DNA from: a virus
Reading direction: 5' to 3' (one strand)
DNA length: 64,000 nucleotides
Virus record (IMG/VR): IMGVR_UViG_3300028115_001726
Location: 8,671 to 72,670 of that record
Of this stretch, positions 4,863-46,401 are shown piece by piece (positions within the stretch are counted from its first letter, which is position 1; every line of letters begins with the position of its first letter). The notes beneath the pieces are model-generated. The model was not told the DNA's origin. It saw only the letters and a program-made list of their open reading frames with translations, and searched no databases. A program made the position numbers and the translations under genes.

Positions 4863-4879
4863 AGTATAAGGTAAAAAAG

Positions 4880-12983: not shown

Positions 12984-13008
12984 CAAATAGTTTATATTCG
13001 TGTATTAT
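12980..13008 (+). promoter_or_regulatory. Sigma70-type promoter
   Basis: TTGACA (12980-12985), 17 nt spacer, TATTAT (13003-13008); GGAG SD before ATG 13035. Confidence 0.7.
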
Positions 13009-13034
13009 TACAGTAGTAATATCGGAGTATACGA

Positions 13035-24534: not shown

Positions 24535-24556
24535 TAAATATATACGCATATATTTA
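24535..24556. promoter_or_regulatory. Perfect inverted repeat carrying two opposed TAAATA late boxes
   Basis: TAAATATAT-ACGC-ATATATTTA between divergent genes 24514(-) and 24569(+). Confidence 0.65.
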
Positions 24557-26341: not shown

Positions 26342-26379
26342 AACGTATTTACAAAATTAAATGCGTACTTAATTATAAT
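26342..26379. promoter_or_regulatory. Divergent leaderless late promoters with central palindrome
   Basis: Minus strand TAAATA-N4-ATG(26341); plus strand TAATTA-N4-ATG(26380); TTA-AA-TGCGTA-CT-TAA at 26357-26372. Confidence 0.6.
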
Positions 26380-27468
26380 ATGGATAAATTTATATTTGAC
26401 AAAGTATTTGATGGCGTGTACTATTGGTTTGTTTGGGCACAGATAGACGGTAAACATCTTAGAAGAAAAATAGCCGAACCAGAAGTTAAAAAATTAATGA
26501 TAATGGGCTTTGAAGAATATGAAGTAATGTCTGTGTATGGAAATAGACAAGACTGGGACGATTTTTTAAAATATGCTGCCGAATGTAATGTAGAAGTATT
26601 TTTAATTAGACCTGCTTATTTAGACACCGAATTAAATTACAGGCATTACATTACCGAAGGCAAAAATTTAATACAATATATGCATTATTTTGGAGCAGCA
26701 GCATTACATACTTACATTAATAGCAAATATACAGTAATACAACCCAAAGTTTTTAAGAAAACATTTACAAGTCTAAATAATAAAGGTCATATACATAGGT
26801 GTATTTTCTTTGATGAAATGTATAAACAAAATCAACGACACAAAGGTTTTGTTTCATGGGGTGCTAACGATATCAATTGGGACTATAAATGGAAATACTT
26901 TGATACACCTAACATTCCACAAAAACTTGATTGGGAGTCAGTTGATGATCCAAGAAATGACATATTATTTCCTCCAAAACAATTTGGTAGTAGTTTATGG
27001 AGTGTAGTATGTGAAAGCAATACAGAATGTATATTTACAACAGAAAAAACATACATTCCAATTTTACATAAGCGTCCTTTTGTAACCTATGCTGTTCCAA
27101 ATTTTAACAAAGCACTTGAAAATTTAGGATTTAAACTGTTTGACGAATATATTGATTATAGTTTTGATAGCATAGACAACGATAGAAAACGTGCTGAAGA
27201 ATTTTGGAAACAGATAAACAAATTACATGATTTAGATCATGCTAAAGTAAAAGAAGAATTACAAGAAAAAATTGATTACAATTTTAATTGGCTTTGTACT
27301 ATGTGTTTAAATCCTCAAAACCATTTGCCAAAAGAATTTTTAGACATGGTCGAAAATGTTGAGCATTTACATATGCAAGAAGTATATAACCCTCGTATAT
27401 TCATAGACAGAACAAAATTTAATGAATGGTGTGTAAGACACAATTTTAATTTTAAGGAAATAAAATGA
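26380..27468 (+). CDS. Glycosyltransferase-like protein (GT10-like C-terminus)
   Basis: VVCES...FTTEKTYIPILHKRPFV...LENLGFKLF...YSFD; paralog of 23171..24514 and 29806..30792. Confidence 0.5.
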   Translation: MDKFIFDKVFDGVYYWFVWAQIDGKHLRRKIAEPEVKKLMIMGFEEYEVMSVYGNRQDWDDFLKYAAECNVEVFLIRPAYLDTELNYRHYITEGKNLIQYMHYFGAAALHTYINSKYTVIQPKVFKKTFTSLNNKGHIHRCIFFDEMYKQNQRHKGFVSWGANDINWDYKWKYFDTPNIPQKLDWESVDDPRNDILFPPKQFGSSLWSVVCESNTECIFTTEKTYIPILHKRPFVTYAVPNFNKALENLGFKLFDEYIDYSFDSIDNDRKRAEEFWKQINKLHDLDHAKVKEELQEKIDYNFNWLCTMCLNPQNHLPKEFLDMVENVEHLHMQEVYNPRIFIDRTKFNEWCVRHNFNFKEIK

Positions 27469-28280
27469 GATTATTTGCGTTTGGTTGTAGTTTTACAAAT
27501 TATGCTTGGCCTACATGGGCTACTATTATGGCGTATGATTTACAAATACCTATATACAATTTTGCTATAGCAGGCTTAGGCAATAGAGGTATTATGAATC
27601 GTATAGTTGAAGCTGATGCTAAATTTAACATTCAACCTGAAGATAAAATTGTAATACTTTGGTCAAGTTTTGAACGTTGGGATCATATACACGATGGAGA
27701 ATATCAAGCGGTTGGTAGTATTTTTGCTCACGGTAGAGAAATGAAATGGCTTCAAGATAGATGGAATTATCCAGAAGATTTAGTTTTCAATTATAGTGAA
27801 ATTATTACAGTTAACCGTGCTTGGAAAGACAATATTTTTTGGCAAGGTATGGCATTTGATCCACACATAGGCGACGGCGGAGCATATATTAAATCTTTAG
27901 ATTTATTAGCTGGTAAAAAGTTTGAAGAATTATACAAAGATAAATTACCCAAGTTGCCTATTTGTATTGAGTTTGATGAAAAAGGTAATGCTTGGAATGG
28001 GTTGTTAGACGATTTACATCCTGATGTAATAGGACACATGAATCTTTTAGAAAAATACATGTACAGCGATTTAGATTTACAATTACGTCCAGAAACAAAA
28101 GTTATTTTTCAAGAACTACATGTTGATTTAGAAAAAGAATACCGTAAACCAGAAAATGTAAATAATCTTGTTGGCGATACTGTAGGAAATGCCACTCTTA
28201 GATGTCTAAGAGCAAAATATAAAGCAAACATTTACCCATATGTAGGTAGCTGGTCTCTATCAGATAACATTGTGTATTAG
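27465..28280 (+). CDS. SGNH-like protein (GCS variant)
   Basis: RLFAFGCSFT, NFAIAGLGN, DDLHP. Confidence 0.65.
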   Translation: MRLFAFGCSFTNYAWPTWATIMAYDLQIPIYNFAIAGLGNRGIMNRIVEADAKFNIQPEDKIVILWSSFERWDHIHDGEYQAVGSIFAHGREMKWLQDRWNYPEDLVFNYSEIITVNRAWKDNIFWQGMAFDPHIGDGGAYIKSLDLLAGKKFEELYKDKLPKLPICIEFDEKGNAWNGLLDDLHPDVIGHMNLLEKYMYSDLDLQLRPETKVIFQELHVDLEKEYRKPENVNNLVGDTVGNATLRCLRAKYKANIYPYVGSWSLSDNIVY

Positions 28281-28847
28281 ATTATAAATGTTTGGATAAT
28301 CTTTGTATGTCCAAAGTTTTGGTTTTGATTTGATAGCATCAGGCAATTTGTCTAATCCTAGTTGTGCTGTTTCTGGAGTCATGTAATAATGATATCCGGC
28401 ACTGTGAATATCTTGTTCTGCCCATGGAGCATTACGATGTCTGCCATCGTATCCCAATTTTATTAAATCATCTCTTTCTTGCTTGCTACTTAAAAGTATA
28501 GCACCACCCCTACCTAAACTCAAATGTTTTTTAAATTGAAAACTTAAACACATATAACTGTTGACAATATAACTGTTTCGTCTCCATAACACAGCAGCAT
28601 CGTATATGTTTTGACTTAGATAATAATATTCTTCCCATCGAGTGTTTGCCCATGATACAGTAGCACCTACTTTTTTTGCTGTCATAGGTACACTTAGATA
28701 TGTTTGCTTTGGCACAGATACATTTTTTACTTCCTTGTATCTTAGAATTAATTCGATAGCATGAGTACAGCAGTCAGTGCTTACAGCATATGGAGCACCA
28801 AAAAATTCTGCTATTTCTTTTTCAAACTTATCTACCGTATCAAACAT
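28260..28847 (-). CDS. Short DegT/DnrJ/EryC1/StrS-family PLP aminotransferase
   Basis: FGAPYAVSTDCCTHA, YDAAV, CLSFQFKKHLSLGRGGAI. Start reassigned to ATG 28847 (TAAATA-N4-ATG), giving 195 aa. Confidence 0.8.
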   Translation of the reverse strand: MFDTVDKFEKEIAEFFGAPYAVSTDCCTHAIELILRYKEVKNVSVPKQTYLSVPMTAKKVGATVSWANTRWEEYYYLSQNIYDAAVLWRRNSYIVNSYMCLSFQFKKHLSLGRGGAILLSSKQERDDLIKLGYDGRHRNAPWAEQDIHSAGYHYYMTPETAQLGLDKLPDAIKSKPKLWTYKDYPNIYNLIHNVI

Positions 28848-28915
28848 AATGTATTTAACCACCAGATCTAATAAGTACATGGTTAATGGATCGTAAATAC
28901 TGTAAGGAGTTCTAC
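28848..28915. promoter_or_regulatory. Divergent late promoter region
   Basis: Minus strand TAAATA (28852-28857) lies N4 from ATG; plus strand TAAATA (28894-28899) is followed by AAGGAG SD; TTAACCA...TGGTTAA inverted repeat at 28855-28886. Confidence 0.6.
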
Positions 28916-29827
28916 ATGAAAATATTATTAACTGGATCAAGCGGATTTATTGGACAGCATTTGTTACCTAGATTACAAGCAATTGGAGAAGTTCACGAAT
29001 TAAAAACAGACTTGACACATCACACTGGTATTCAACAAGAAGTAAAAGAAGTAAATCCTGATATTGTAGTTCATTTAGCAGCAAGGACAGAAGTTCAAAA
29101 AAGTTTTTACGAACAAGTAAGTTTTAGTGAAGTAAATTATGTAGGAACAGTAAATCTTATCGAAGCATGTAGACAACTAAGTACATTACCTTATTTTGTA
29201 TTCGCAAGTACAATGGAAGTTTATGGCTGGCAACCCATTTCAGATGAAGTAGAACAAACCGGAACTTATAAAGAAAGCGTTGCTTTTGATGAATATACGC
29301 AGCCTAATCCAAATGCTCCTTATGCTGTTGCCAAGTATGGTTGTGAAAAATATTTAGAATATGCTGGTAGAGCATACGGTTTGCCTTGGGCTAGTTTTAG
29401 ACAGACTAATAGTTACGGACGCAAAGACAATGACTTTTTCGTTACTGAACAAATTATTTCTCAAATGATAAAAGGTGATACTTGTAATTTAGGTTATGCT
29501 GAACCTTATAGAAACTTTATTTACATTAGTGACTTGCTAGATGCGTGGATGGCTGTAATTGAAAATAGAGATGCGTGTAAAGGCAACTTCTATACTATTG
29601 GACCAGATGATCCACGTAAGATTAAAGATTGTGCTCATTATATCCAACAGCAATTAGGGTGGAATGGAACTATAAACTGGGATACAAAAGATCCACGACA
29701 CGGAGAAATTTGGTGGCTTAATAGTAATCATAATCTTCTTACAAGTAAAACTGGGTGGAAACCCAAAGTATCTTACGAAGAAGGTGTTGAAAGGACTATA
29801 CACCATTGGAAATCAATTCTAACATAA
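28916..29827 (+). CDS. NAD-dependent NDP-sugar epimerase/dehydratase (extended SDR)
   Basis: ILLTGSSGFIG, VHLAA, ASTMEVYG, PYAVAK (YxxxK); start at ATG 28916 after AAGGAG. Confidence 0.9.
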   Translation: MKILLTGSSGFIGQHLLPRLQAIGEVHELKTDLTHHTGIQQEVKEVNPDIVVHLAARTEVQKSFYEQVSFSEVNYVGTVNLIEACRQLSTLPYFVFASTMEVYGWQPISDEVEQTGTYKESVAFDEYTQPNPNAPYAVAKYGCEKYLEYAGRAYGLPWASFRQTNSYGRKDNDFFVTEQIISQMIKGDTCNLGYAEPYRNFIYISDLLDAWMAVIENRDACKGNFYTIGPDDPRKIKDCAHYIQQQLGWNGTINWDTKDPRHGEIWWLNSNHNLLTSKTGWKPKVSYEEGVERTIHHWKSILT

Positions 29828-30792
29828 ACTATAGTAATAAGGCTCATAATAGATATACAGATCCATTTGGATTACCTTACAAGTCTTTTCAACACTGGCA
29901 GGAAAATCCTGTTGGAAAATATTTTTTTATAAAATATTTTAGAGATCGCGATGACGAAGAGATTATAAAAAATGTAAAAGAAAATGAAAATGTTTTTTAT
30001 ATTTTACATGATAACTTAGAAGGTTATGCCAAACGCAGATTTAAAAAAATAGATGCGTTTGTTAATGAAAATAATTTACACAACAAAGTTTATTTTTCTA
30101 CTAGTTTAAAAAGCACAGCAGAAGAATATGAAGATTGGCTACAACAATATAAGTTGCCAAAAGTTTTTACTGCTTTTTATTATCCCGAGTGGTATCATAG
30201 AGTATACGATAATCTTATAGACTATAGATTAAAAAAGTTTTCATATCGAAAAGATATGTATTTTTGTTGTTTGAATAACAGACATCATGAACATAGAGTT
30301 TTACTAATACAAGATTTACAAAATAATGAAATATTAGATAAAGGACTTGTAAGTAGCGACTTTCATAAAATATCTATTGACGGAATAGGTTCAAGGCCAA
30401 ATGATTATAATCCTTTAATATATGCTAAGTCTTTAATAAATGTTGTAACTGAAACATATTATAGACAAGAATGGAATAATACTGGCAATTTGTTTTTTAG
30501 CGAAAAAATATGGAAGCCTATAGTTTGTAAACAAGCATTTATCATTGTAGGACCTAAGCATTCTTTAAAATATTTGAAAGAACTTGGATTTAGAACTTTT
30601 GATAAAATTTGGGACGAAAGTTATGACAATGAAGACTATAAAAAAAGACTTTACATGGCAGCCAATTCGTTGTATAATACAATTAATAATTATTCTATAG
30701 AAGAACTTAATCAAGCCACGTTAGAAATTAGAAAACATAATTTTCAACACTTTAAAAAAATTAGACAAGAAATGATTAAAACATGTTGGTAG
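29806..30792 (+). CDS. Glycosyltransferase-like protein (GT10-like C-terminus)
   Basis: INVVTET...FSEKIWKPIVCKQAFIIVG...LKELGFRTF...DESYD. Confidence 0.5.
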   Translation: MEINSNINYSNKAHNRYTDPFGLPYKSFQHWQENPVGKYFFIKYFRDRDDEEIIKNVKENENVFYILHDNLEGYAKRRFKKIDAFVNENNLHNKVYFSTSLKSTAEEYEDWLQQYKLPKVFTAFYYPEWYHRVYDNLIDYRLKKFSYRKDMYFCCLNNRHHEHRVLLIQDLQNNEILDKGLVSSDFHKISIDGIGSRPNDYNPLIYAKSLINVVTETYYRQEWNNTGNLFFSEKIWKPIVCKQAFIIVGPKHSLKYLKELGFRTFDKIWDESYDNEDYKKRLYMAANSLYNTINNYSIEELNQATLEIRKHNFQHFKKIRQEMIKTCW

Positions 30793-31385
30793 ACTTAGAC
30801 GATGTAGCATTTTGGATGGATGCTGTGCGAAACAACGAAAATCATTTCGGTGTGTTAGAAAGTTTTTGGAAAGGACAACTTAAAAGCAAAGTGTGGCTTG
30901 TAGAGCATCTACATAATTCTCATTGGCGTCAAGAGAACATTGTAATCTTTGGCGGTTGGAACGGTGTATTATCTAGTTTGTTGTTTAACAGTAAATTAGA
31001 CATAAATGACATACGTAGTGTTGATATAGATCCGAGTTGTGAAGAAGTTGCTAACATGATTTGTAAGAGGCAAGAAATTGAAGGCAAATTTAATGCTATT
31101 ACTTGCGATATGTGTACATACGAATATGAATTTACTCCTGATCTTGTAATAAACACTAGTACAGAACATATAACACAAGAACAATATGAAACATGGTTAG
31201 AACGTGTTCCAAAAACAAGTGCTATTGCTATACAAAATAACAATTATAAAAGTATTGCTGATCATATTCGTTGTTATGATTCATTAGAAGAATTCAAAAT
31301 GTCCAGTGGTTTACAAAAGATATATACAGAGGATACTCTTAAATTACCATTGTATGATAGATATCTTTTGATTGGGCGCAAATGA
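30783..31385 (+). CDS. Class I SAM-dependent methyltransferase-like protein
   Basis: IVIFGGWNG motif I, SVDID acidic motif II, DLVINTSTEH; paralog of 47711..48610. Confidence 0.65.
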   Translation: MLVDLDDVAFWMDAVRNNENHFGVLESFWKGQLKSKVWLVEHLHNSHWRQENIVIFGGWNGVLSSLLFNSKLDINDIRSVDIDPSCEEVANMICKRQEIEGKFNAITCDMCTYEYEFTPDLVINTSTEHITQEQYETWLERVPKTSAIAIQNNNYKSIADHIRCYDSLEEFKMSSGLQKIYTEDTLKLPLYDRYLLIGRK

Positions 31386-32761
31386 CAGACTTTTTAGAAT
31401 TATTTAATAACAGACTAAAAGCAGAAGCAACAGAAACTTTTTGTGCGTTGCCTTGGATACACATGGCCACACGTCCAAATGGAGATATGCGGTTGTGCTG
31501 TAGTGCTAACGCCAGCGGAGCAGGCACAGATCATACAGTGGGTATTGTAAAAGACGATAGCGGACAGCATATAAACTTTGCGTCAACATCTCCTATGGAA
31601 GCATGGAACAGCGAATACATGCGTGGTGTAAGACGTACCATGATGGATGGTAAAATACCTGCTAGTTGTACAAAGTGTTTTGCTGAAGAATCAAAGGGTG
31701 TAGTAAGCAAACGTGTGTGGGAAACAGGAACCTGGATGGAACGTGGTCTTGATATACAAGATTTATTAAACGAAACACACAAAGATGGATACTACAAAGA
31801 AGAACTACAATATTTAGACCTGCGTCTTGGGCATACTTGTAATATCAAGTGTGTAATGTGTTCGCCACATGACAGCAGCAAGTGGGTAAAGGACTGGAAA
31901 GTATTAGAGCCACAGCTAAAAGATCTAGAAGTCAAGAGACAGATGCAATGGGATAAATCTGCTTTCAACAACAAGTGGCACGAACAAGAAATATTCTGGG
32001 ACGATCTATACAAACAAATACCTAATCTACGTGAAGTATACTTTGCTGGCGGTGAGCCATTGATGATAAAAGAACACAAAAAGTTTATCGAAGAAATTGT
32101 TAGACAAGGCTATCATAAACGTATACGTTTACGCTATAATACAAATGGCATATTAGTTGATAAAGATTTAATTAATTTATGGAAACACTTTGAAATAGTA
32201 AAAGTAGGTGTTAGTATGGACGCTGCTGGACCACGTAACAACTACATACGGTTTCCAACAGACTGGGATACTGTAGAACGTAACTTACACATGTTGGATA
32301 ATACACCTGACAACATACGGCCAAGTATTGCCACTGCTATACAAATTTTTAACATTAAACATTTGCCAGACTTTATTCACTGGAAAATATCACAAGATTT
32401 TAAAAAAGTAAACACAGAAGAAATTCGTGGAGTAAAAGTCGGCGGCGGTCTAATCAATATGCACTTATTGTATATTCCAACATTTATGAGTATACAAATA
32501 TTACCAAAAGAGGACAAAGCAGAAATACGTGAACTGTTTGGAAAATTCAAAGAATTTTTATATGACAGTTGGACACAGGATCCTAACTTTTGGGAATTAA
32601 ATCCGTATGGTTGGAGACGTTGGGAAGCAATACTAAATCATATGGACGCCGAAGACAAGAGTCATCTGCTTCCGGGATTCAAAGAGTATGTAAACAAACT
32701 TGATGCTATTAGAGGAGTAAATGCTAAAGATGTATTTCCTGAATTAGCTCACTTGTTATGA
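31382..32761 (+). CDS. Radical SAM enzyme, class A
   Basis: CNIKCVMC, AGGEPL; N-terminal FCALPW...LCC...CTKC. Confidence 0.9.
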   Translation: MTDFLELFNNRLKAEATETFCALPWIHMATRPNGDMRLCCSANASGAGTDHTVGIVKDDSGQHINFASTSPMEAWNSEYMRGVRRTMMDGKIPASCTKCFAEESKGVVSKRVWETGTWMERGLDIQDLLNETHKDGYYKEELQYLDLRLGHTCNIKCVMCSPHDSSKWVKDWKVLEPQLKDLEVKRQMQWDKSAFNNKWHEQEIFWDDLYKQIPNLREVYFAGGEPLMIKEHKKFIEEIVRQGYHKRIRLRYNTNGILVDKDLINLWKHFEIVKVGVSMDAAGPRNNYIRFPTDWDTVERNLHMLDNTPDNIRPSIATAIQIFNIKHLPDFIHWKISQDFKKVNTEEIRGVKVGGGLINMHLLYIPTFMSIQILPKEDKAEIRELFGKFKEFLYDSWTQDPNFWELNPYGWRRWEAILNHMDAEDKSHLLPGFKEYVNKLDAIRGVNAKDVFPELAHLL

Positions 32762-35819: not shown

Positions 35820-36540
35820 GTTGTTTACGATAACTATCTACAATTAGTTCACAGTATTCTTTTTTTCTATTGCCTAAATAGCAATGAGCTATTAAATGTA
35901 TTCTATCTTTTTCACTATTGTTTACTACACTATGGTCGTTAAAAATATTACACATTATCATCTTTCCAGACTTAAAGGGTACTACTCCAGAATCTTTGAT
36001 TGTCATGTGACATTCGTCAGGATGATCAATTGCTATGTTTACAGGAATAGGCCAATCAAATAAATTTTCACTTGTAACAAACGGTGAGTAATCATTATGA
36101 GGAGATATATATCCACCTGCTTCCAATTTCATAAACCTAATTCGGGCATAAGTTTCAGCTGGAAAAACAGACTTAAAAAATAATTTAATTTTTTTTGTTT
36201 TATTACCTAAAGATGTCCAGTTATAATTAGGTTCTTTTTCGTATCCGTAAGTTTGCCAAACATTTGTCTTATCTACATCAATACCATGTAGTACACAACT
36301 ACTCCAGCCTCGATGTGTTCCTTCGCCTGTAGATTCATCTCTGTGTGCTACATAATAAGGCTCAGCAAGTTTGCTATCCGATAACCAACCTTTAGTATTA
36401 AATAAACAATCTAATTCTAAGTATTGATATCCATGTCCACTAATAATCCATTTTGTTTGATCTTCTAAACTGTAATCTGGAAGTGGTTTTGGTTCTAATA
36501 CAGCATTGCGATGCTGATTATAAAATTTTATATGATCCAT
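35791..36540 (-). CDS. Asp/Asn beta-hydroxylase-like Fe(II)/2OG oxygenase
   Basis: RIRFMKLEAGGYISPHND (HxD)...HSVVNNSEKDRIHLI (distal His, Arg). Confidence 0.75.
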   Translation of the reverse strand: MDHIKFYNQHRNAVLEPKPLPDYSLEDQTKWIISGHGYQYLELDCLFNTKGWLSDSKLAEPYYVAHRDESTGEGTHRGWSSCVLHGIDVDKTNVWQTYGYEKEPNYNWTSLGNKTKKIKLFFKSVFPAETYARIRFMKLEAGGYISPHNDYSPFVTSENLFDWPIPVNIAIDHPDECHMTIKDSGVVPFKSGKMIMCNIFNDHSVVNNSEKDRIHLIAHCYLGNRKKEYCELIVDSYRKQHERISKQIY

Positions 36541-36578
36541 ATGGTATTTATATCATTAACTACGCATATAAATAAAAA
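36541..36578. promoter_or_regulatory. Back-to-back TATAAATA late promoters, both leaderless, with central palindrome
   Basis: Minus strand TATAAATA-N4-ATG(36540); plus strand TATAAATA(36567-36574)-N4-GTG(36579); TTA-AC-TACGCA-TA-TAA at 36556-36571. Confidence 0.7.
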
Positions 36579-37625
36579 GTGTTTAGTTTTACAGATCTCA
36601 AAAGCGTCCACATAGAAATATCAAATCGTTGTCAGGCACAGTGTCCTATGTGTAGCCGTAACCACCATGGCGGAATAGGAAATCCTTTACTTACAGAAAG
36701 CGATTGGACTATTGAAGACTTTATACATATATTTACAGAAGAAGTAAAACAACAAATAGAAAAAATAACATTTTGTGGTAATTTTGGCGATCCGTTGCTT
36801 AATTTTCATTTAGTAAAAATGCTTGATTATGTTAAAAACGACGATATTTATATTGATATACATACTAATGGTAGTTTACGTAATCACACATTTTGGAAAG
36901 AATTACCAAACCATTTGCCAGCAGCACACAAAGTTGTATTTGCGTTAGACGGTTTAGCTGATACACACAGCAGATATCGAATAAACACAGATTTCAATAA
37001 AATAATTGACAACGCTCGTTCGTTTATAGCAGCAGGCGGTACTGCCGAATGGAGTATGATAAGGTTTAAACACAATGCGCATCAAGTATCGGCAGCAAAA
37101 GAAGTTTCTAAGTATTATGGATTTAAATATTTTACAGTTAAAGATAGCAGCCGTTTTGCTTTTGATGATAAATTTGCGGTATTAAATAAATTTGGTAAAA
37201 CTGTGGATACATTAGAACCATACCAAGAAGTAAGTCCTATTTCTCCTGAACTTATACCTACTTTAGTAGATCAAACAATTATTGATTGTTGGGCTAAAAA
37301 GCAGTGCGAAGTTTACATTGATGCGCATCTTGATTTAATGCCTTGCTGTTTCTTAGCCAGTATTCCTTATAATTGGCATAATAAAAAAGATCCATTATAC
37401 GAAGCTAAAGAGATAACAAAAGCTCAATATGAAAACCTTATATTTGATATGGGTAATACAAATTTAAAAAATACTTCGATAAAAAATATTATAAGTAAGC
37501 CTGGTTACACAAGTGTATGGAAACGTTACTGGACTACGCAAAAATTATATACTTGTGCTAGGACTTGCGGAAATTTAGTTGCTACACCTAGCGAACAATT
37601 TGTTGAAAAACTTCAAGTGACTTAG
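36579..37625 (+). CDS. Radical SAM enzyme, GNxGDP variant with C-terminal Twitch (class C)
   Basis: CQAQCPMC, CGNFGDP; C-terminal C...PCC...CARTC. Confidence 0.85.
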   Translation: MFSFTDLKSVHIEISNRCQAQCPMCSRNHHGGIGNPLLTESDWTIEDFIHIFTEEVKQQIEKITFCGNFGDPLLNFHLVKMLDYVKNDDIYIDIHTNGSLRNHTFWKELPNHLPAAHKVVFALDGLADTHSRYRINTDFNKIIDNARSFIAAGGTAEWSMIRFKHNAHQVSAAKEVSKYYGFKYFTVKDSSRFAFDDKFAVLNKFGKTVDTLEPYQEVSPISPELIPTLVDQTIIDCWAKKQCEVYIDAHLDLMPCCFLASIPYNWHNKKDPLYEAKEITKAQYENLIFDMGNTNLKNTSIKNIISKPGYTSVWKRYWTTQKLYTCARTCGNLVATPSEQFVEKLQVT

Positions 37626-38640
37626 CTTTAGGTACACACATACCGCAACCGCATCTATTGTGTGGACATTTTATTATTCTATCGCGATTTTCATAGGCAT
37701 AATTTAATATTCCATCAGGATTACTTAAACGTCCTATTGGGCCTTTTCGTCCACTAAAACTTGTTTGACAAGTTTGGTGATGATAAACTTTTCCTGTATG
37801 TTGATCAATATGTAAAAAATACTTGTTTACAGCACAATACCAATCTTTAAAATTAGTGTTCACAGCTTCTACTTTATTCCAGCATCCGTTACAGCTTCCT
37901 TGTATACTTCTAGCACCACAACAGCCTCTAGGCAATTCATATCCTTCTTTTACACGTTCAACTAAATCAATTGACAAACCTTTTTCTTTAAGATACCATT
38001 GTTGCTGTTCTATTGTATAAGGATGACTGGTCCTGCGTTTGACACCTTCAGTATCCTCAAACCAATCTGTAATTCCTACTATCCCGTCGCCTATTATCGT
38101 TGGTTTGCTATCAATACCGTGCGCCTTTAATTTTTCATGTACTTCTACACATTCATTCCAGTGATCAGCGTGCATCATTACATTTACTGTATTCCAAATA
38201 CCTGCGTCATGTACTAATATAGCGTTATTTACTGTGCGTTCTTTACTAAAAAGTGCTGCTTCGGCATGATAACTTAGTGTTATGCCTACAAAGTTTTGCT
38301 TAATAAAATCAATATGCTTTTCTGGCCATGTGCCGTTGCTGGTCATGCCAACTTGAAACTCAGTTTCATTGTTTATTTTTTCTACAAAGTCCCAAAACTT
38401 TGGATTAACTGTTGGTTCCCCTCCGGTAAATCCTATATTAGCATTTGGTTGTTTATATAATGATGTGTATTGTTTAACAAATGACAATGTGTCACATAAT
38501 TCATTCCAACTTGTAGGCGGGCTATAAGTGTTATGCCTAGTGCTTTCGCAGTAAGTACAATCAAAATTACAACGTCTACCAATATCCCATGTAACCATCA
38601 TAGGTTCAGGATTGGTTAATTTTATAGCATCTACTTCCAT
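37588..38640 (-). CDS. Radical SAM enzyme, class B (extra CCG insert)
   Basis: CNFDCTYC, TGGEPT; GCCG...FKDWYC...CPHNRCGCGMC. Confidence 0.9.
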   Translation of the reverse strand: MEVDAIKLTNPEPMMVTWDIGRRCNFDCTYCESTRHNTYSPPTSWNELCDTLSFVKQYTSLYKQPNANIGFTGGEPTVNPKFWDFVEKINNETEFQVGMTSNGTWPEKHIDFIKQNFVGITLSYHAEAALFSKERTVNNAILVHDAGIWNTVNVMMHADHWNECVEVHEKLKAHGIDSKPTIIGDGIVGITDWFEDTEGVKRRTSHPYTIEQQQWYLKEKGLSIDLVERVKEGYELPRGCCGARSIQGSCNGCWNKVEAVNTNFKDWYCAVNKYFLHIDQHTGKVYHHQTCQTSFSGRKGPIGRLSNPDGILNYAYENRDRIIKCPHNRCGCGMCVPKAKSLEVFQQIVR

Positions 38641-39527
38641 TTAGTTATATTCACATCAGCAGCACATGTACACCAATCTCTAGTACAAATTATAGGAACA
38701 TCGGGACGTTCAAAACTTCCATTATATATGTTTCCTAAACTTCCACCAACTCTACATGTAGCTCTATGTACTTCTCCATCCCAATTTATCATTAAACTTT
38801 CTATACCAGCTCTACATTGCCATCCCTTAAACATATTTAATTTTTCTTTAAGTAAATCGTTTGTGTGCATCAAATCTTTACTGTCAACAAGAGTGTTAGG
38901 TTTAGCTGTTGTTTCTGTGCTTTTTATCCATTCTAAATCTTTAAGTTCATACCGCATATCGTCAAACCAGTCATGACGTTCGGTCCATCGTATGCGTCTA
39001 ATACTAAAAGCAATATTATGTTCAGTAAGTAATCTAGTTGCTAGTTTTACTTCTTTCATTAACTCGTGATGTGCCATTATCATTACATGAAAGTCTTTAG
39101 AATGTTTTATACCACCTACTGTGCCAGCAAAATATAAAATAGTGTCAAGTCTTTTACGCCAGTCTTTATCTTCAATATGTAAGCTGAACACTATGTAATT
39201 GACTGGCAGTTGTAAGTAGTATTCTGCTTTTCTAGTAGCGTTAGTTGTAACACTTAACCAATTAATTTTAGGACGAGCATACTCAATCAAATATTCAAAC
39301 TGAGGATGAACGCACGGTTCACCACCTGTAAAACTAATACGTACATTTTTGATTTGAGAAAGTGTATCTACTGTTTCAAACAGTTTACCTATGTTTGTAT
39401 GAGGACTATGTTGATCATGTATTTCAGGAGGACAGTATGAACAGTCTAGGTTACAACGTTTACCTAAATTCCACTCAACTTTAACACTATCTCTATAGTG
39501 CGGCCACCTATTTTCTACACTAAACAT
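38631..39527 (-). CDS. Radical SAM enzyme, class B
   Basis: CNLDCSYC, TGGEPC; FKGWQC...ATC...CTRDWCTC. Confidence 0.9.
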   Translation of the reverse strand: MFSVENRWPHYRDSVKVEWNLGKRCNLDCSYCPPEIHDQHSPHTNIGKLFETVDTLSQIKNVRISFTGGEPCVHPQFEYLIEYARPKINWLSVTTNATRKAEYYLQLPVNYIVFSLHIEDKDWRKRLDTILYFAGTVGGIKHSKDFHVMIMAHHELMKEVKLATRLLTEHNIAFSIRRIRWTERHDWFDDMRYELKDLEWIKSTETTAKPNTLVDSKDLMHTNDLLKEKLNMFKGWQCRAGIESLMINWDGEVHRATCRVGGSLGNIYNGSFERPDVPIICTRDWCTCAADVNITKWK

Positions 39528-40459
39528 TTAGTAATATTAGTCTCCGGCATACAATTACATTCGCATTGAGTACAAACAACAGGTTGTAACGTAGGATTAA
39601 ATTTTTTATAAAATGTTTTTTGTCTAAAATTATAATTTTTATCTTTGCCAAATAAATGTTGTCCACATGTTCCACTTAATTCACCGTTTGGACTAATGTG
39701 TATCCAGTCTAGTCCTAAATTACATTTCCATCCTTTGAACTTATTAAGTTTATTTACTAAAATATAATTGTCTGGCACACGTTTTTTGTCTACATATATT
39801 TTAGTTGATTTATATTTGTTATTAATAAAAAACCATAAAGGATTAGCACTACGAGCTTTATGTTTCTTTAAAATAATCTTTTGTTTTTCTGTATATTCTT
39901 TATTGCTTAAAATTTCTGAATATCTAATAGTCCAGCGGTACTTGCTTTTCTTCATTTTTTCAATAGCTAAAATACATTTGTCCCAATCCAAAGGATCCAT
40001 CATTACACTAGCACTTACAATAACTTTGTTCTTATACAATAAATCAGCAACATTAATAAACGATTGTAAATTTGCTTGTCTATAATGATAGCTTAGGTGT
40101 ATTTTGTCAAAATATTTGGCAAATTTATTCCATAAGTCTAATTTTTTACTGCCATTGCTAGTCATGCTGATTAAACAGTTGTAATTGTCCTTAAGATATT
40201 TAATATAATCAAGAAGTTTTGGCCAGTGTGTTGGTTCACCTCCTACAAAATGAATGTCAAATTTAGTTTTACCTTGATTTTTATACCAATTAAGCAGTCT
40301 ATCTGTATTTTTAATTAATATATCGTAATTAAACCATTTGTGATTACCTTCGTGTGCGCCCTTAAAGCAATACCAGCATTGATAATTACAAATATTACCA
40401 ATACTCATATCTATCATTAACGTATCGTTATTGATATTATTTGTAACTTGCGTAATCAT
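39515..40459 (-). CDS. Radical SAM enzyme, class B
   Basis: CNYQCWYC, VGGEPT; FKGWKC...GTC...CTQCECNC. Confidence 0.9.
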   Translation of the reverse strand: MITQVTNNINNDTLMIDMSIGNICNYQCWYCFKGAHEGNHKWFNYDILIKNTDRLLNWYKNQGKTKFDIHFVGGEPTHWPKLLDYIKYLKDNYNCLISMTSNGSKKLDLWNKFAKYFDKIHLSYHYRQANLQSFINVADLLYKNKVIVSASVMMDPLDWDKCILAIEKMKKSKYRWTIRYSEILSNKEYTEKQKIILKKHKARSANPLWFFINNKYKSTKIYVDKKRVPDNYILVNKLNKFKGWKCNLGLDWIHISPNGELSGTCGQHLFGKDKNYNFRQKTFYKKFNPTLQPVVCTQCECNCMPETNITKCLV

Positions 40460-41702
40460 CTATCAAACTTTCAAAACTTCTTTGTCCGCGACTCACATCA
40501 AGTCTGCGATTGAACTCTAAAGTTTGCGGCCACTTGTCGCTTAAATCTCTAGCAGTCAAAAAGTTAATATTGTCCTGTATCTGTTGTAGTGTAATAGGCA
40601 GTAATCTTTTGTCTACGCTCATAATAGGGTAGTCAACTACTTGTGCTTTAAGCATCTCTAGTTGCCGTATAATTCTTGTCTTATATTTGTTTGGTAAGCA
40701 TTGCGCACTTAATACGTTTGGATAGTTTACTCTATGCGAGTAAAACACAATGCCCATTTTGTTTAAAAAGTAATCAATTATATCAGATAATTGTAAAGCA
40801 TTTCCTGCTTGTACTGTACATGCTCCTACAACATAATCAACATTAGGAAAACTTTGGAATATTTTTACTGTTTCTTCTACTTGTGTAAAGTCACCGTTGC
40901 CTCTTATATGATCGTATACATCGTGTATACCGTCTATGCTTACATTAACACTTACTTTCCTAAACTTAGGCCAATAGTCGTGTATTGTCCTTCCGCCTTT
41001 TATACCAGTCACTGTGCCGTTTGTAGCATATTTTATCTCTATGTTTTTTCCATACGGTGCTAACATATCCAATATACGATAATGTGTAGGGTCCATTAAT
41101 GGCTCTCCGCCAGCAAACTCTACTCTACGGAAATAAGGTAATAGTTTTTCAATGTTATTCCAAAAATCTACTTTGTCATTAAATAAATCAATATAAGGAG
41201 CTTCAGTAAGTCCTAGTTTTCTTACTGTATCGTATAGATAATTTCCTTCATCCTTATAAAAGTTTTCAACTTCTTTCCAGTCTTTCCATTGTGTGCTATC
41301 TAAAGGATTACACATGCGGCATTTTAAATTACATAAGTTATTAATTTTTATTTCTATTGTAGGAAATTCAAATGGCATACTCCAATCTGTACGTAACGAT
41401 TCAAGCGCATCAGGATATAAGTTTATTCGTGCTTCGGGAAAGCTATCACGTATGTGCCTTTGTCTTAAACTCTCGACACCTTGATCCTCTAAGTTAAAAC
41501 ACGGGGCACAAACGTCTGGTCTCTCATTTGAAAGCACTTGTTTACGTACTTCACGCATTGTACCATTATTCCAAACTTCTTCCAAAGTACTATCTTGTAT
41601 CCATCCAATAGGTAAACTACGACAACATACTTTGATAGCACCATCTTCTCTAGTAGCAAGTCCTGTAAACGGATGTAAGCAAAAAGTTTTACTTGGATGC
41701 AT
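40437..41702 (-). CDS. Radical SAM enzyme, class A
   Basis: CNLKCRMC, AGGEPL; N-terminal FCLHPF...VCC...CAPC. Start reassigned to ATG 41702 (MHPSKTFC) by analogy with paralogs. Confidence 0.9.
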   Translation of the reverse strand: MHPSKTFCLHPFTGLATREDGAIKVCCRSLPIGWIQDSTLEEVWNNGTMREVRKQVLSNERPDVCAPCFNLEDQGVESLRQRHIRDSFPEARINLYPDALESLRTDWSMPFEFPTIEIKINNLCNLKCRMCNPLDSTQWKDWKEVENFYKDEGNYLYDTVRKLGLTEAPYIDLFNDKVDFWNNIEKLLPYFRRVEFAGGEPLMDPTHYRILDMLAPYGKNIEIKYATNGTVTGIKGGRTIHDYWPKFRKVSVNVSIDGIHDVYDHIRGNGDFTQVEETVKIFQSFPNVDYVVGACTVQAGNALQLSDIIDYFLNKMGIVFYSHRVNYPNVLSAQCLPNKYKTRIIRQLEMLKAQVVDYPIMSVDKRLLPITLQQIQDNINFLTARDLSDKWPQTLEFNRRLDVSRGQRSFESLIDDYASYK

Positions 41703-42384
41703 TGATAATACCCCATTCACGTTCTTTACACCAAAAACATTCATTACAGTATGGAACTCTTTGATAGGGTTTGTATGTTGTATAGTCTAGCCCTTCAAAT
41801 TCGCCTTCACAACTACGTGTTATTTCCAATAGTTCGCCAATTTCATTATCAACATATTGCTTGATTATCCAATTTTTGCGTACTACACTAAATGGATGAC
41901 AAACTGTTACACCCATATGTTCTGTTTCAATAGGTAGTCTAGCATATTCTCTATCCTCAGGAGCACCTTCAAACTTTTCATCTGGATTTAGGGTAACAGC
42001 AGCATACCATGCGTCAAGTTTGTGTAAATGTGCTATGTATTCATTGTGAGCTCGTAGTATAATTCTGTTTCCGGGCTTGTTTTGCCCATACTCGTCTGTA
42101 ATATGTGTTGTGTGTGGCTCTTCCATCTCTGGCGGTATAAAGCCTTCTATGTGTTCGATACGATTGTTAAACTTTTCACGGAACCAACTTACCACATCTC
42201 TAGCAATCCAACGTTGCCAAGGGCGTGTTTTCCACATACGCACCTGTGTGGTAAAGTAGATATCAGCATTTGTGTTACTCAACACAAAGTAAGCCAGCAA
42301 AGCACTGTCAGCACCGCCACTTAGACTAATGCCAATACGTTTCCATTCTTTTTGTAGTGGTATTGTTACGCCATCGATTACCAT
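41689..42384 (-). CDS. QueC-like PP-loop ATP pyrophosphatase
   Basis: ISLSGGADS PP-loop; C-terminal TRSC...CNECFWCKER Zn-site pattern; 231 aa. Confidence 0.7.
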   Translation of the reverse strand: MVIDGVTIPLQKEWKRIGISLSGGADSALLAYFVLSNTNADIYFTTQVRMWKTRPWQRWIARDVVSWFREKFNNRIEHIEGFIPPEMEEPHTTHITDEYGQNKPGNRIILRAHNEYIAHLHKLDAWYAAVTLNPDEKFEGAPEDREYARLPIETEHMGVTVCHPFSVVRKNWIIKQYVDNEIGELLEITRSCEGEFEGLDYTTYKPYQRVPYCNECFWCKEREWGIINASK

Positions 42385-42389
42385 AATAT

Positions 42390-42417
42390 ATTATAACACA
42401 GTTTAGTAATGTGTCAA
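42390..42417 (-). promoter_or_regulatory. Sigma70-type promoter with extended -10, leaderless
   Basis: Minus strand TTGACA, 16 nt spacer ending TGT, TATAAT, 5 nt, ATG(42384). Confidence 0.7.
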
Positions 42418-43209
42418 GTGTCCTATTCCTATGCGTTCTTTGAATTCTTGTGTGAATTTACAATCAATACGCAATCCATATTCTTGTTCCATACTATGCT
42501 CACCGCCATGCCAGTCTTGGTCGTTGAAAAAACAAGCATGAGAATTTACATAATGCTTGCGTTTGTGCTCTGGATCCCAAATATAAAAGCCACGCTTGGT
42601 GTTTGGACGTATATGAATAAACTCAATATTGTGATCAGTATAGTCTTTTACTTCTGGATCTAAATCTCTATGCTCAAAGGGCCTACTACTTGCTTCACTT
42701 ACAAAAAACATGACTCTACCTACGTGTTCTACAATTGATTGTTCCTTTAGTTGTGCTATCCAATCCATAACGCCTGGAAAGTAGGCACTTTCGTCTGTTG
42801 CGGCTCTTTGTTCCAAACCTCTGTCTTTCATATTGGTGCCTTCTTCTTGTAAAACATAGTAAGTGTATGGATCGTGTGCGCCCATAGCACTTTTTAAATA
42901 TCTTACAAATTGATTACGTTCTATATAGTTGGTAAAATCTTTAGGAAATATTTTATCACCTTCAATACGTATCGGATTATTTGGTTCTAATGCTTGATAT
43001 TCTTCATAGGCTTTGTATACTGGCTTCCAGTTGCCTATATAGCTCATGTCTTTTAAATCAAATCCTGCTGGCATCCATGTGCCTTCTTTGGCAAATAGTC
43101 GTGCTTGAGCCATACCTCTACATATTTCCGCATTTAATTTTTTAAAACCGTCTATATCTAAAAAAGGATCTAGGTCAATGTAAGGTAAGTTTTCGAAACC
43201 TCGTATCAT
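42403..43209 (-). CDS. Cupin / Fe(II)-2OG oxygenase-like protein
   Basis: GRVMFF...FEHRD (HxD)...DWHGG...LRID. Confidence 0.55.
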   Translation of the reverse strand: MIRGFENLPYIDLDPFLDIDGFKKLNAEICRGMAQARLFAKEGTWMPAGFDLKDMSYIGNWKPVYKAYEEYQALEPNNPIRIEGDKIFPKDFTNYIERNQFVRYLKSAMGAHDPYTYYVLQEEGTNMKDRGLEQRAATDESAYFPGVMDWIAQLKEQSIVEHVGRVMFFVSEASSRPFEHRDLDPEVKDYTDHNIEFIHIRPNTKRGFYIWDPEHKRKHYVNSHACFFNDQDWHGGEHSMEQEYGLRIDCKFTQEFKERIGIGHLTHY

Positions 43210-43235
43210 ACAACTACTTATATATTAAATACAGT
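43210..43235. promoter_or_regulatory. Divergent leaderless late promoters
   Basis: Minus strand TAAGTA-N5-ATG(43209); plus strand TAAATA(43226-43231)-N4-ATG(43236). Confidence 0.6.
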
Positions 43236-46366: not shown

Positions 46367-46395
46367 TTGACAGATATTTTTTGATGCTATATAAT
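46367..46395 (+). promoter_or_regulatory. Perfect sigma70 consensus promoter, leaderless
   Basis: TTGACA (46367-46372), 17 nt spacer, TATAAT (46390-46395), 6 nt, ATG (46402). Confidence 0.8.
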
Positions 46396-46401
46396 AGTAA
46401 C

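What the first reader, a model, noticed from the sequence alone, without database searches (positions are those of the whole stretch)
26342..43235. Late promoter boxes sit 4-5 nt before start codons: systematic leaderless transcripts in divergent pairs
Seen: TAA(A/T/G)TA-N4/5-start with no SD at seven genes: 26341(-), 26380(+), 28847(-), 36540(-), 36579(+), 43209(-) and 43236(+). Three divergent gaps are only 26-38 bp. Structural genes (4880, 9486, 11001, 46328) use the same box with an SD-bearing leader. Known: T4 gp55 recognises TATAAATA and initiates a few nt downstream. Inference: the enzyme genes are late and leaderless. Late timing fits modification of virions better than modification of replicating DNA.
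Basis: partly seen in the sequence, partly recalled or inferred. Interest (0 to 1): 0.7.

Follow-up and report, generated by a model that had tools for sequence, protein, structure and literature searches.

The report
Phage promoters abutting start codons
In this uncultured marine giant T4-like phage, short promoter boxes sit so close to several start codons, often back-to-back in gaps of 26-38 bases, that the messages probably begin on the start codon itself with no ribosome-binding leader, which T4 does not do and which RNA mapping has still to prove.

Summary
All seven sites exist as described. TAAATA lies exactly 4 nt before the start of five genes (26341-, 28847-, 36540-, 36579+ GTG, 43236+), TAAGTA 5 nt before 43209-, and TAATTA 4 nt before 26380+ (weak, not conserved). 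The raw motif count is not above chance (5 vs 4.95). The location is: 5 of 5 hits are gene starts, against 0.047 expected.

In six related contigs the box-to-start spacing is bimodal: 29 at 4-5 nt, 3 at 6-15, 75 at 16-40. Orthologues keep box and spacing while the spacer letters drift. Near-consensus sigma-70 promoters show the same split, 15 at 5-6 nt and none at 7-16.

Relatives encode a gp55-like late sigma. T4 and three cultured relatives lack the arrangement.

The likeliest reading is leaderless mRNAs from both promoter classes. No RNA 5' end has been mapped, and one RNA-library contig bridges one gap.

This scan noted the same design in at least 8 other uncultured T4-like phages. I found no paper on it.

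The parts
26339..26351 (-). TAAATA box (26346-26351), 4-nt spacer CGTT, ATG 26341 of the amidinotransferase gene 25340..26341; predicted leaderless late-type start
   Evidence: The gene product matches StrB1 (1bwd) at E 1.2e-51. The box is kept in 10 of 10 distinct orthologue upstream sequences at 70% identity or more, N4 in 8 and N5 in 2. An in-frame stop lies 18 nt upstream.
28845..28857 (-). TAAATA box (28852-28857), spacer CATT, ATG 28847 of the half-size DegT-like gene 28260..28847
   Evidence: Pfam DegT match at E 1.1e-16. TAAATACATTATG is present in all five relatives searched.
28894..28918 (+). TAAATA box (28894-28899), AAGGAG (28904-28909) and the true ATG 28916 of the epimerase operon (six genes to 34714); late-type with a short SD-bearing leader
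   Evidence: The alignment with relatives shows a conserved MKILLTGSSG N-terminus and SD. The Pfam Epimerase match starts at residue 13 of the longer ORF. Coordinates checked.
36538..36550 (-). TAAATA box (36545-36550), spacer CCAT, ATG 36540 of the Asp/Arg-hydroxylase-like gene
   Evidence: Box and spacing are invariant in six contigs while the spacer varies CAT/TAT. An in-frame stop lies 15 nt upstream.
36567..36581 (+). TATAAATA box (36567-36574), spacer AAAA, GTG 36579 of a radical-SAM gene; back-to-back with the previous promoter in a 38-bp gap
   Evidence: An in-frame TAA lies 6 nt upstream, and the CxxxCxxC motif at residues 18-25 leaves no other start. GTG and spacing are kept in all relatives.
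43207..43220 (-). TAAGTA box variant (43215-43220), 5-nt spacer GTTGT, ATG 43209 of a 268-aa gene
   Evidence: TAAGTA-N5-ATG is kept in 9 of 9 distinct sequences at 78% identity or more. L135 (62% identity) has the same box at N23 with an AGGAG site.
43226..43238 (+). TAAATA box (43226-43231), spacer CAGT, ATG 43236 of a 218-aa hydroxylase-like gene; shares a 26-bp gap with the previous promoter
   Evidence: Conserved with spacer variants AGT, TGT and TTT.
26370..26382 (+). A conserved TATAAATAT at 26329-26337, inside the neighbour's first codons, is an alternative promoter 42 nt upstream.
   Evidence: Relatives carry an extra SGNH-like gene here and use the conserved inner box with an AAGGA site. 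The G000 junction is lineage-specific.
42382..42417 (-). Perfect sigma-70-type promoter TTGACA (42412-42417)-N16-TATAAT (42390-42395), 5-nt spacer, ATG 42384 of a five-gene operon (PP-loop protein plus four radical-SAM genes); predicted leaderless host-type start
   Evidence: 12 of 12 matches, with TG before the -10. The SGGADS motif at residues 22-27 and an in-frame stop 9 nt upstream fix the start. Conserved in relatives.
46367..46404 (+). Perfect sigma-70-type promoter TTGACA-N17-TATAAT (46390-46395), 6-nt spacer, ATG 46402 (the true start, not TTG 46381) of an operon of at least 18 genes; predicted leaderless host-type start
   Evidence: The conserved N-terminus M(Y/F)DI(I/V)FVG begins at this ATG.
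12980..13037 (+). Sigma-70-like TTGACA-N17-TATTAT, 26 nt before ATG 13035 with a GGAG site: heads an 11-gene operon with five radical-SAM or SPASM genes
   Evidence: The relative has TTGACA-N17-TATAAT at the same place.
4856..4882 (+). Late box TAAATA (4856-4861) with an SD-bearing leader before ATG 4880. Boxes of the same kind lie at 9453-9458 (ATG 9486), 10968-10973 (ATG 11001) and 46346-46351(-) (ATG 46328).
   Evidence: The box is conserved before the 11001 orthologue in nine loci.
24535..24556 (.). Crossed divergent late boxes TAAATA 24535-24540(+) and 24551-24556(-), with 28- and 36-nt leaders to ATG 24569 and TTG 24514

Best explanation
The window is part of an uncultured marine jumbo phage with a T4-like core. 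It has two promoter types.

1. A -10-only box, (A/T)TAAATA(C), most likely read by host core RNA polymerase carrying a phage gp55-like late sigma.
2. Ordinary host-type TTGACA-N16-18-TATAAT promoters.

Each type comes in two layouts. In one layout the box lies 16-40 nt from the start codon, with a Shine-Dalgarno site in between. In the other it lies 4-5 nt (late box) or 5-6 nt (-10 hexamer) before the ATG or GTG. In the close layout the polymerase should initiate at, or within about one base of, the A of the start codon. The message then begins with its start codon and is translated without a leader.

A -10-only promoter needs no upstream element. Two such units therefore fit back-to-back in 26-38 bp and drive divergent genes.

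Shown here: the boxes, their exact spacing, their conservation, the absence of SD, the gp55 homologue in relatives, and the absence of the layout in T4.

Inferred: the position of the transcription start, leaderless translation, and late timing.
For: 1. Position. 5 of 5 TAAATA-N4-RTG hits in the window are gene starts, against 0.047 expected.

2. Forbidden zone. Over 470 ORFs in six related contigs, TAAATA lies at spacing 4-5 in 29 cases, 6-15 in 3 and 16-40 in 75. AT-matched hexamers are flat.

3. Among distinct upstream sequences, an SD-like core is present in 42 of 52 with the box at 14-40 nt, in 1 of 21 with the box at 4-5 nt, and in 154 of 316 of the rest.

4. Independent geometry. Near-consensus sigma-70 promoters (at most 1 mismatch in 12) end 5-6 nt before an ATG in 15 cases, 0-4 or 7-16 nt in none, and 17-39 nt in 18. 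This places the A of the ATG at the usual +1 (the sigma-70 spacing rule is recalled).

5. Footprints.
- Amidinotransferase orthologues at 70% identity or more keep the box in 10 of 10 distinct sequences, N4 in 8 and N5 in 2, with six different spacers. None of 9 distinct sequences at 60% identity or less has it.
- The 43209 orthologues keep TAAGTA-N5 in 9 of 9 distinct sequences. A 62%-identical relative has the same box at N23 with AGGAG.
- In the 36541-36578 gap both boxes are invariant while 6 of the 16 inter-box positions vary.

6. The base before the start codon is a pyrimidine in 32 of 36 predicted leaderless starts against 146 of 350 others (Fisher P 2.7e-8; the sequences are related, so this overstates independence).

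7. The starts are fixed by in-frame stops 6-18 nt upstream and by N-terminal motifs.

8. A gp55 homologue is present in syntenic relatives G002 and G003: phrog_12791 E 2.8e-77; PDB 7d7c_F E 1.2e-5. N13, R57, F86, Y97 and T99 are identical.

9. The same close layout precedes a gp25-like baseplate wedge gene in G002, G003 and G004.
Against: - No 5' end was mapped.
- RNA-library contigs bridge one of the gaps. X16 36347-36639 spans both starts of the 36541-36578 gap. X15 36111-36585 runs 45 nt upstream of ATG 36540. Two contigs bridge ATG 42384. These may be DNA carry-over or read-through, but they may also be leadered transcripts.
- In T4 P23 the start is the 6th base after TATAAATA (my derivation from the adenines at -12, -9 and -8 and the oligo printed in PMC7892883). 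Here the A of the ATG is the 5th base after the box in the dominant class. Strict T4 spacing would start on the U.
- One start is GTG. E. coli translates leaderless GUG messages poorly (recalled).
- The raw motif count is at or below chance.
- The window's own contig is a fragment (about 20% complete by CheckV's estimate) and holds no gp55 gene.
- gp33 and gp45 homologues were not looked for specifically.
- Gene starts come from my own longest-ORF heuristic, not from a gene finder.
- The six contigs represent about three lineages.
Confidence: 0.65

Rival explanations
1. The genes are transcribed from promoters further upstream, inside the divergent neighbour's coding sequence. They are translated from leaders that lack a Shine-Dalgarno site. 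The box next to the ATG then acts on the RNA as an A/U-rich initiation context, or is a promoter for something else.
For: - The phage does place late boxes inside neighbouring coding sequence. TATAAATA(C/T) sits in the first codons of the amidinotransferase gene and serves the opposite gene in relatives.
- Gene 24569 has a 28-nt leader without SD.
- RNA-library contigs bridge the 36541-36578 gap and ATG 42384.
Against: - It does not explain why the same box works at variable distance with SD elsewhere.
- It does not explain why spacings 6-15 are empty.
- It does not explain why perfect sigma-70 promoters obey the same 5-6 nt rule.
- It does not explain why -1 is a pyrimidine.
Confidence: 0.12
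2. The close layout does give leaderless messages, but the TAAATA box is not a late, gp55-type promoter. It is read by host sigma-70 as a weak -10-only element or by another phage factor, so these genes are not late.
For: - TATAAATA contains TATAAA, which matches 5 of the 6 positions of the host -10 hexamer.
- No timing data exist.
- The gp55 gene is not on the window's contig.
- The upstream TA of T4's TATAAATA is not conserved here.
Against: - gp55 homologues with conserved DNA-pocket residues are present in two syntenic relatives.
- The box precedes tail, baseplate and virion genes, whereas polymerase, clamp-loader and nucleotide-metabolism genes in G002 carry TTGACA/TATAAT promoters.
- The gp55-like gene itself sits behind a TTGACA-N17-TATAAT promoter.
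Confidence: 0.15
3. Chance: AT-rich hexamers fall next to start codons in an AT-rich genome with tiny intergenic gaps.
For: The raw count of TAAATA-N4-RTG equals the shuffle expectation (5 vs 4.95). The relaxed motif is rarer than in shuffles (13 vs 25.9).
Against: - All 5 strict hits are gene starts (P about 2e-9; 7e-6 under an intergenic null).
- The AT-matched hexamer control is flat.
- Box and spacing are conserved across orthologues while the spacers drift.
Confidence: 0.02

Closest known systems
Phage T4 late promoters (TATAAATA read by gp55, with gp33 and the gp45 clamp)
   Same: - A -10-like A/T box with no -35 element (passages of PMC2988020 and PMC7892883).
- The core TAAATA(C) is identical to the P23 sequence printed in PMC7892883.
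- It precedes virion genes.
- A gp55 homologue with 5 of 7 pocket residues identical is present in relatives.
   Different: - T4 has no TAAATA-N4-ATG at all (0 hits against 7 for the control).
- No T4 ORF start has the box at 4-8 nt. Its mode is about 28 nt (265 ORFs by my heuristic).
- Here about a quarter of the boxes in front of genes abut the start codon.
- The upstream TA of the 8-mer is not conserved.
- The A of the ATG is one base closer to the box than +1 is in T4 P23.
- The sigma is 287 aa, against 185 aa for gp55.
Leaderless mRNAs of bacteria and temperate phages (lambda cI from PRM; mycobacterial leaderless transcripts)
   Same: A promoter -10 element a few bases before the start codon, no Shine-Dalgarno site, and AUG or GUG at the 5' end. 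The lambda case is recalled. For mycobacteria I saw only the search listing and abstract of PMC4633059, and for GeneMarkS-2 only the abstract of PMC6028130.
   Different: Here the layout is used by a lytic T4-like jumbo phage, for both its host-type and its own late promoters, and in back-to-back pairs within 26-38 bp. It makes up about 8 of 17 predicted promoter-headed transcription units in the window (my count).
Cultured jumbo relatives (PA5oct, Vibrio phage 2.275.O, Asteriusvirus Ecwhy_1, Atu_ph07)
   Same: The nearest cultured portal proteins, at 46-51% identity. The PA5oct paper reports TATAATA and TTGAC promoter motifs (passages of PMC7318152).
   Different: - 0 of the 5 TAAATAC-N3-ATG sites in three of these genomes fall on an annotated start. 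The other 5 N4 hits, which lack the C, were not checked.
- The PA5oct paper does not contain the word leaderless. Its promoter table S3 was not opened.
- phiKZ mapping found no leaderless transcript among 65 start sites (passage of PMC8244752).
Poxvirus late promoters (TAAATG initiator overlapping the start codon)
   Same: A TAAAT-type late element directly joined to the ATG. This resemblance is recalled from memory and was not tested here.
   Different: A different polymerase and host domain. Poxvirus messages carry poly(A) heads. No homology is implied.
Earlier notes of this scan on other uncultured T4-like phages
   Same: Eight notes describe TAAATA 5-9 nt before about 20-50 start codons. 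Two of them also describe host-type promoters in the same layout. These are AI notes, not independent evidence.
   Different: Those are other genomes, several described as freshwater. Here the dominant spacing is 4 nt by my count, and the cases sit in divergent 26-38 bp gaps among sugar and radical-SAM enzyme genes.

Membership tests
T4-type (gp55-dependent) late promoter | -10-like TATAAATA box | tested here: met
   The core TAAATA is invariant, usually followed by C and preceded by A or T. The full TATAAATA is present at 36567-36574 and 10966-10973. The first TA of the 8-mer is not conserved overall.
T4-type (gp55-dependent) late promoter | No conserved -35 or other upstream element | tested here: met
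   Base frequencies from -20 to -2 are flat in both spacing classes. Two boxes fit in a 26-bp gap.
T4-type (gp55-dependent) late promoter | A gp55-family sigma encoded by the phage | tested here: inconclusive
   Found in the syntenic relatives G002 and G003. Not found on the window's own 72.7-kb contig, which is a fragment.
T4-type (gp55-dependent) late promoter | Placed in front of virion and other late genes | tested here: met
   Tail-fibre-like genes at 4880-10970 in the window. Baseplate, hub and virion-protein genes in G002.
T4-type (gp55-dependent) late promoter | Activation by gp33 and the gp45 clamp, coupled to replication; late timing | not testable with these tools
   No time course is available. 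No gp33 or gp45 match appeared in the PHROG scan of 116 G002 proteins, but G002 is about 48% complete.
T4-type (gp55-dependent) late promoter | Start site about 6 nt after the box | not testable with these tools
   Only assembled RNA contigs were available. By geometry the A of the ATG is the 5th nt after the box (N4 class) or the 6th (N5 class).
Leaderless mRNA | Transcript 5' end on (or within a few nt of) the start codon | tested here: inconclusive
   Contigs cannot show starts. One RNA-library contig bridges the 36541-36578 gap.
Leaderless mRNA | No Shine-Dalgarno sequence before the start codon | tested here: met
   for the window. 1 of 21 distinct N4-5 upstream sequences has an SD-like core, against 42 of 52 for N14-40.
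Leaderless mRNA | Promoter -10 element at the distance that puts +1 on the start codon | tested here: met
   TATAAT-N5/6-ATG in 15 cases, with perfect or near-perfect -35 and -10 hexamers. In the window: 42417(-) and 46367(+).
Leaderless mRNA | The start codon is the true N-terminus | tested here: met
   In-frame stops lie 6-18 nt upstream of five of the starts. The CxxxCxxC and SGGxDS motifs follow at once. N-termini are conserved in orthologues. No proteomic check was made.

The most novel reading that the evidence does not exclude
A whole clade of marine jumbo T4-like phages runs about half of its transcription units as leaderless messages, from both host-type and gp55-type promoters. It uses 26-38 bp back-to-back promoter pairs as minimal bidirectional expression modules. 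The scale of this would imply that the phage or its host favours direct 70S initiation on 5'-AUG/GUG messages during infection. That would be a translational regime not known for T4-type phages.
Probability: 0.15. Interest if true: 0.85.

Novelty: new variant of a known kind. Interest (0 to 1): 0.6.

Why it matters
T4 late transcription is a textbook system, and its messages carry ordinary leaders.

If this clade really starts many early-type and late-type messages on the start codon, three things follow.
- It would show how a -10-only promoter allows extreme genome compaction. The window has 414 non-coding bases in 64 kb, and two promoters fit in 26 bp.
- Gene finders would need a leaderless model for these phages. 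Three ORF starts in this window needed correction.
- It would raise the question of how leaderless translation is supported in the unknown host.

It also tells which of the many sugar and radical-SAM enzyme genes are likely co-expressed with virion proteins and which are not.

Tried and rejected
**Metatranscriptome contigs.** Four RNA runs were laid on 24400-44399. Only assembled contigs were available, and 32 of 105 pieces were listed.
- Some listed pieces stop near predicted starts: 42399-43210 ends 1 nt upstream of ATG 43209, 43249-43614 begins 13 nt inside gene 43236, 25817-26321 ends 20 nt inside gene 26341, and 28910-29259 begins 6 nt after the predicted start of the epimerase message.
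- No listed piece crosses 26342-26379, 28848-28885 or 43210-43235.
- Contigs over 25333-26321 had word depths of 24-72, against 2-7 for the other listed pieces. Contig depth cannot rank genes.

**Raw motif counting as a test.** Counts are at or below chance in the window and in the cultured relatives. Only location relative to gene starts is informative.

**Loose sigma-70 and terminator scans.** Neither is above shuffles: 99 vs 93 and 9 vs 10.

**DNA similarity to known phages.** Only a 130-nt patch matches, at 72-74% identity.

**Literature.** Five searches found no paper on leaderless late transcripts of T4-like or jumbo phages. The hits for 'leaderless' in PMC12801897 and PMC12695635 were reference-list entries only.

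**ORF-calling artefact from the TAA inside the box.** Rejected, because TAA is out of frame with an ATG at N4 or N5, and N3 (in frame) is empty.

**Scan notes.** A look-up of notes on this genome found none.

Full report
**What the window is**

The 64-kb window is part of a 72.7-kb viral contig with 33% G+C.
- It opens with the end of a giant ORF of more than 4508 aa.
- Tail-fibre-like genes follow.
- After them come about 50 tightly packed enzyme genes: at least 27 radical-SAM or SPASM proteins, an epimerase, a half-size DegT-like protein, hydroxylase-like proteins and a cytidylyltransferase.
- By my ORF set only 414 bases are non-coding.

Five viral contigs (G001-G005) are syntenic with the window at 38-97% protein identity. 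The 170-kb contig G002 carries T4-type core genes: DNA polymerase, clamp loader, portal, prohead protease, major head protein and SbcCD-like nuclease. The nearest cultured portal proteins, at 46-51% identity, belong to Atu_ph07, Phosso, PA5oct, a Vibrio jumbo phage and Asteriusvirus.

**Check of the observation**

| Box and spacing | Start codon(s) |
|---|---|
| TAAATA, 4 nt | ATG 26341(-), 28847(-), 36540(-), 43236(+) |
| TATAAATA, 4 nt | GTG 36579(+) |
| TAAGTA, 5 nt | ATG 43209(-) |
| TAATTA, 4 nt | ATG 26380(+) |

The three divergent gaps are 38, 38 and 26 bp. Genes 4880, 9486, 11001 and 46328(-) have the same box 17-27 nt upstream, with AAGG or AGGAG in between.

The number of motif hits is not above chance.
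- TAAATA-N4-RTG occurs 5 times, against 4.95 in dinucleotide shuffles.

The signal lies in where the hits fall.
- 5 of 5 strict hits and 7 of 13 relaxed hits are starts of long ORFs.
- Chance would put the box on 0.047 and 0.21 of the 61 starts. Under a null that uses the box density of intergenic DNA, the figure is 0.25.
- TAAATAC-N3-ATG occurs 4 times, against 0.51 expected.

**Spacing across the clade**

I called ORFs with a simple longest-ORF heuristic in the six contigs, giving 470 ORFs that are not open at a contig end. The six contigs represent about three lineages. TAAATA lies at these distances from starts:

| Spacing, box to start | Cases |
|---|---|
| 4 nt | 25 |
| 5 nt | 4 |
| 6-15 nt | 3 |
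| 16-40 nt | 75 |

The other 14 hexamers of the same composition are flat. The exceptions are shifted readings of the same box and ATAATA at 4 nt, which is TATAAT-N5. An artefact from the TAA inside the box is excluded, because it would peak at the in-frame spacing 3, which is empty.

Among distinct upstream sequences, the share with an SD-like core depends on the spacing:
- box at 14-40 nt: 42 of 52
- box at 4-5 nt: 1 of 21
- all others: 154 of 316

**A second, independent promoter class shows the same rule**

Near-consensus TTGACA-N16-18-TATAAT promoters (at most one mismatch in 12) end at these distances from a start:
- 5 nt: 10 cases
- 6 nt: 5 cases
- 0-4 or 7-16 nt: none
- 17-39 nt: 18 cases

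Two perfect ones are in the window.
- 42417(-) lies 5 nt before ATG 42384.
- 46367(+) lies 6 nt before ATG 46402. This, and not TTG 46381, is the conserved start.

For sigma-70 promoters the start lies about 7 nt after the hexamer (recalled rule). These messages should therefore begin on the A of the ATG. The leaderless layout is thus not special to the late box.

**Conservation**

- In the 36541-36578 gap, both boxes and both spacings are identical in all six contigs, while 6 of the 16 inter-box positions differ.
- For the amidinotransferase gene (StrB1-like, E 1.2e-51), 38 loci were fetched. The 9 distinct upstream sequences at 70% identity or more all keep TAAATA, at N4 in 7 and N5 in 2. 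With the window's own sequence that makes 8 and 2 of 10, with six different spacers and T at -1 throughout. None of the 9 distinct sequences at 60% identity or less has the box, and several of those are SD-led.
- For gene 43209, 22 loci were fetched. All 8 distinct sequences at 78% identity or more keep TAAGTA-N5-ATG within a 26-bp gap. None of the 6 at 62% or less does. One of those, L135, has TAAGTA at N23 followed by AGGAG.

The base before the start codon is a pyrimidine in 32 of 36 predicted leaderless starts, against 146 of 350 others. The four exceptions are the GTG orthologues. These sequences are related, so the P value overstates independence.

**The starts are real**

In-frame stops lie 6-18 nt upstream of 36579, 42384, 36540, 26341 and 43209. 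The radical-SAM CxxxCxxC motif (residues 18-25 of the 36579 ORF) and the SGGADS motif (residues 22-27 of the 42384 ORF) leave no room for a later start.

**Who reads the box**

G002 encodes a 287-aa protein that matches the PHROG late-sigma families: phrog_12791 at E 2.8e-77 and phrog_234 at E 9.7e-22. It also matches T4 gp55 in PDB 7d7c at E 1.2e-5. Five of the seven pocket residues named in PMC7892883 are identical (N13, R57, F86, Y97, T99), with L54 to Y and H95 to F. G003 has an 82%-identical copy. The window's own fragment has none.

In G002 the box precedes baseplate, hub and virion-protein genes. Polymerase and nucleotide-metabolism genes, and the sigma gene itself, carry TTGACA/TATAAT promoters. 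A gp25-like baseplate wedge gene has the close N4 layout in G002, G003 and G004. This supports 'late' by analogy. No timing data exist.

**Geometry caveat**

PMC7892883 (passages) states that gp55 flips the adenines at -12, -9 and -8 of P23. With the printed oligo, I derive that TATAAATA spans -13 to -6 and that +1 is the 6th base after the box. Here the A of the ATG is the 5th base in the dominant class and the 6th in the minor class. Either this sigma initiates one base closer, helped by the T(-1)A(+1) step, or the start is not on the A.

**Comparison with known phages**

- T4 has no TAAATA-N4-ATG at all, against 7 hits for the control pattern.
- No T4 ORF start has the box at 4-8 nt. The T4 mode is near 28 nt.
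- PA5oct, Vibrio phage 2.275.O and Ecwhy_1 have 5, 3 and 2 N4 hits, against control counts of 18, 2 and 10.
- The 5 of these hits that carry TAAATAC do not fall on annotated starts. The other 5 were not checked.

**RNA data**

Four metatranscriptome runs hold the phage, but only as assembled contigs. Such contigs cannot show starts.
- Against a strict reading, X16 36347-36639 bridges both starts of the 36541-36578 gap.
- X15 36111-36585 reaches 45 nt upstream of ATG 36540.
- Two contigs bridge ATG 42384, as expected if the upstream gene reads through.
- DNA carry-over cannot be excluded.

I assigned each gene to the first promoter upstream of it. This is an inference and assumes no internal promoters. 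Of the 53 genes from 13035 onward:
- 34 lie behind sigma-70-type promoters: operons from 13035, from 42384 and from 46402. These hold most of the radical-SAM genes.
- 17 lie behind late boxes: the amidinotransferase, the DegT-like gene, the six-gene epimerase operon, the hydroxylase-like genes, the 36579 radical-SAM gene and others.
- 2 are ambiguous (26380, 27465).

So only part of the enzyme set is predicted to be late. The idea that late timing points to virion rather than DNA modification remains untested.

**Literature and earlier notes**

Five full-text searches listed no paper describing leaderless late messages in T4-like or jumbo phages.
- The AR9 paper reports leaders of 26-491 nt (passage).
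- The phiKZ paper found no leaderless transcript among 65 start sites (passage).
- The PA5oct paper gives promoter motifs but does not contain the word leaderless. Its Table S3 was not opened.

This scan has noted the same design in at least eight other uncultured T4-like phage genomes, none with mapped 5' ends. Those are unchecked AI notes and do not count as support.

**Verdict**

The leaderless reading is well supported by sequence logic but unproven at the RNA level. The 'late enzyme genes' reading is only partly right.

Noticed in passing
window 16539-63999: At least 27 ORFs match Radical_SAM and/or SPASM in Pfam. Several have the SPASM or twitch-like domain N-terminal to the radical-SAM core, and one has a B12-binding domain (58272-59729). 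This is an unusual density for any genome. Earlier scan notes on relatives call such regions sugar-tailoring islands.
   Followed up: no
window 1-4858 (contig 2-13528): A single ORF of more than 4508 aa runs off the 5' end of the contig. Part of it matches a virion structural protein PHROG. The G002 orthologue is 58% identical.
   Followed up: partly
window 24543, 26362, 36561: A CG-containing core, T(A/G)CGC(A/G) or its complement, lies between or beside the boxes in 3 of the divergent gaps: 3 hits in 422 intergenic bases against 0.26 expected. It is kept with purine/pyrimidine swaps in relatives. It could be a regulator site or an upstream promoter element.
   Followed up: partly
window 28858-28880: The stretch AACCACCAGATCTAATAA between the DegT-like and epimerase promoters is identical in G000 and the G002 lineage, although the flanking spacers vary.
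   Followed up: no
window 26342-26379: Relatives carry an extra 242-aa gene (N-terminus MRRLFTFGCSFTHY, SGNH/GDSL-like by eye) between the amidinotransferase and the 362-aa gene. The window's lineage lacks it. This created the non-conserved junction before ATG 26380.
   Followed up: partly
window 54902-54930 and 61938-61966: Two further perfect TTGACA-N17-TATAAT matches lie inside coding sequence on the + strand. The second is 70 nt before ATG 62037. They may be internal promoters of the long operon.
   Followed up: no
window, both strands: TAAATA-N4-RTG is absent from coding DNA: all 5 hits are gene starts, though shuffles give about 5 hits anywhere. T4 has 0 hits against 7 for the control. 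This may reflect selection against spurious internal promoter-start pairs.
   Followed up: partly
window 25333-26321: In four RNA-library runs, contigs over the amidinotransferase gene had word depths of 24-72, while the other listed pieces had 2-7. The tool warns that contig depth cannot rank genes.
   Followed up: no
G003:C1:72507-73355: The match to the gp55-like sigma in G003 is reported with one TAA inside it. I did not check whether this is the gene's end or a break.
   Followed up: no
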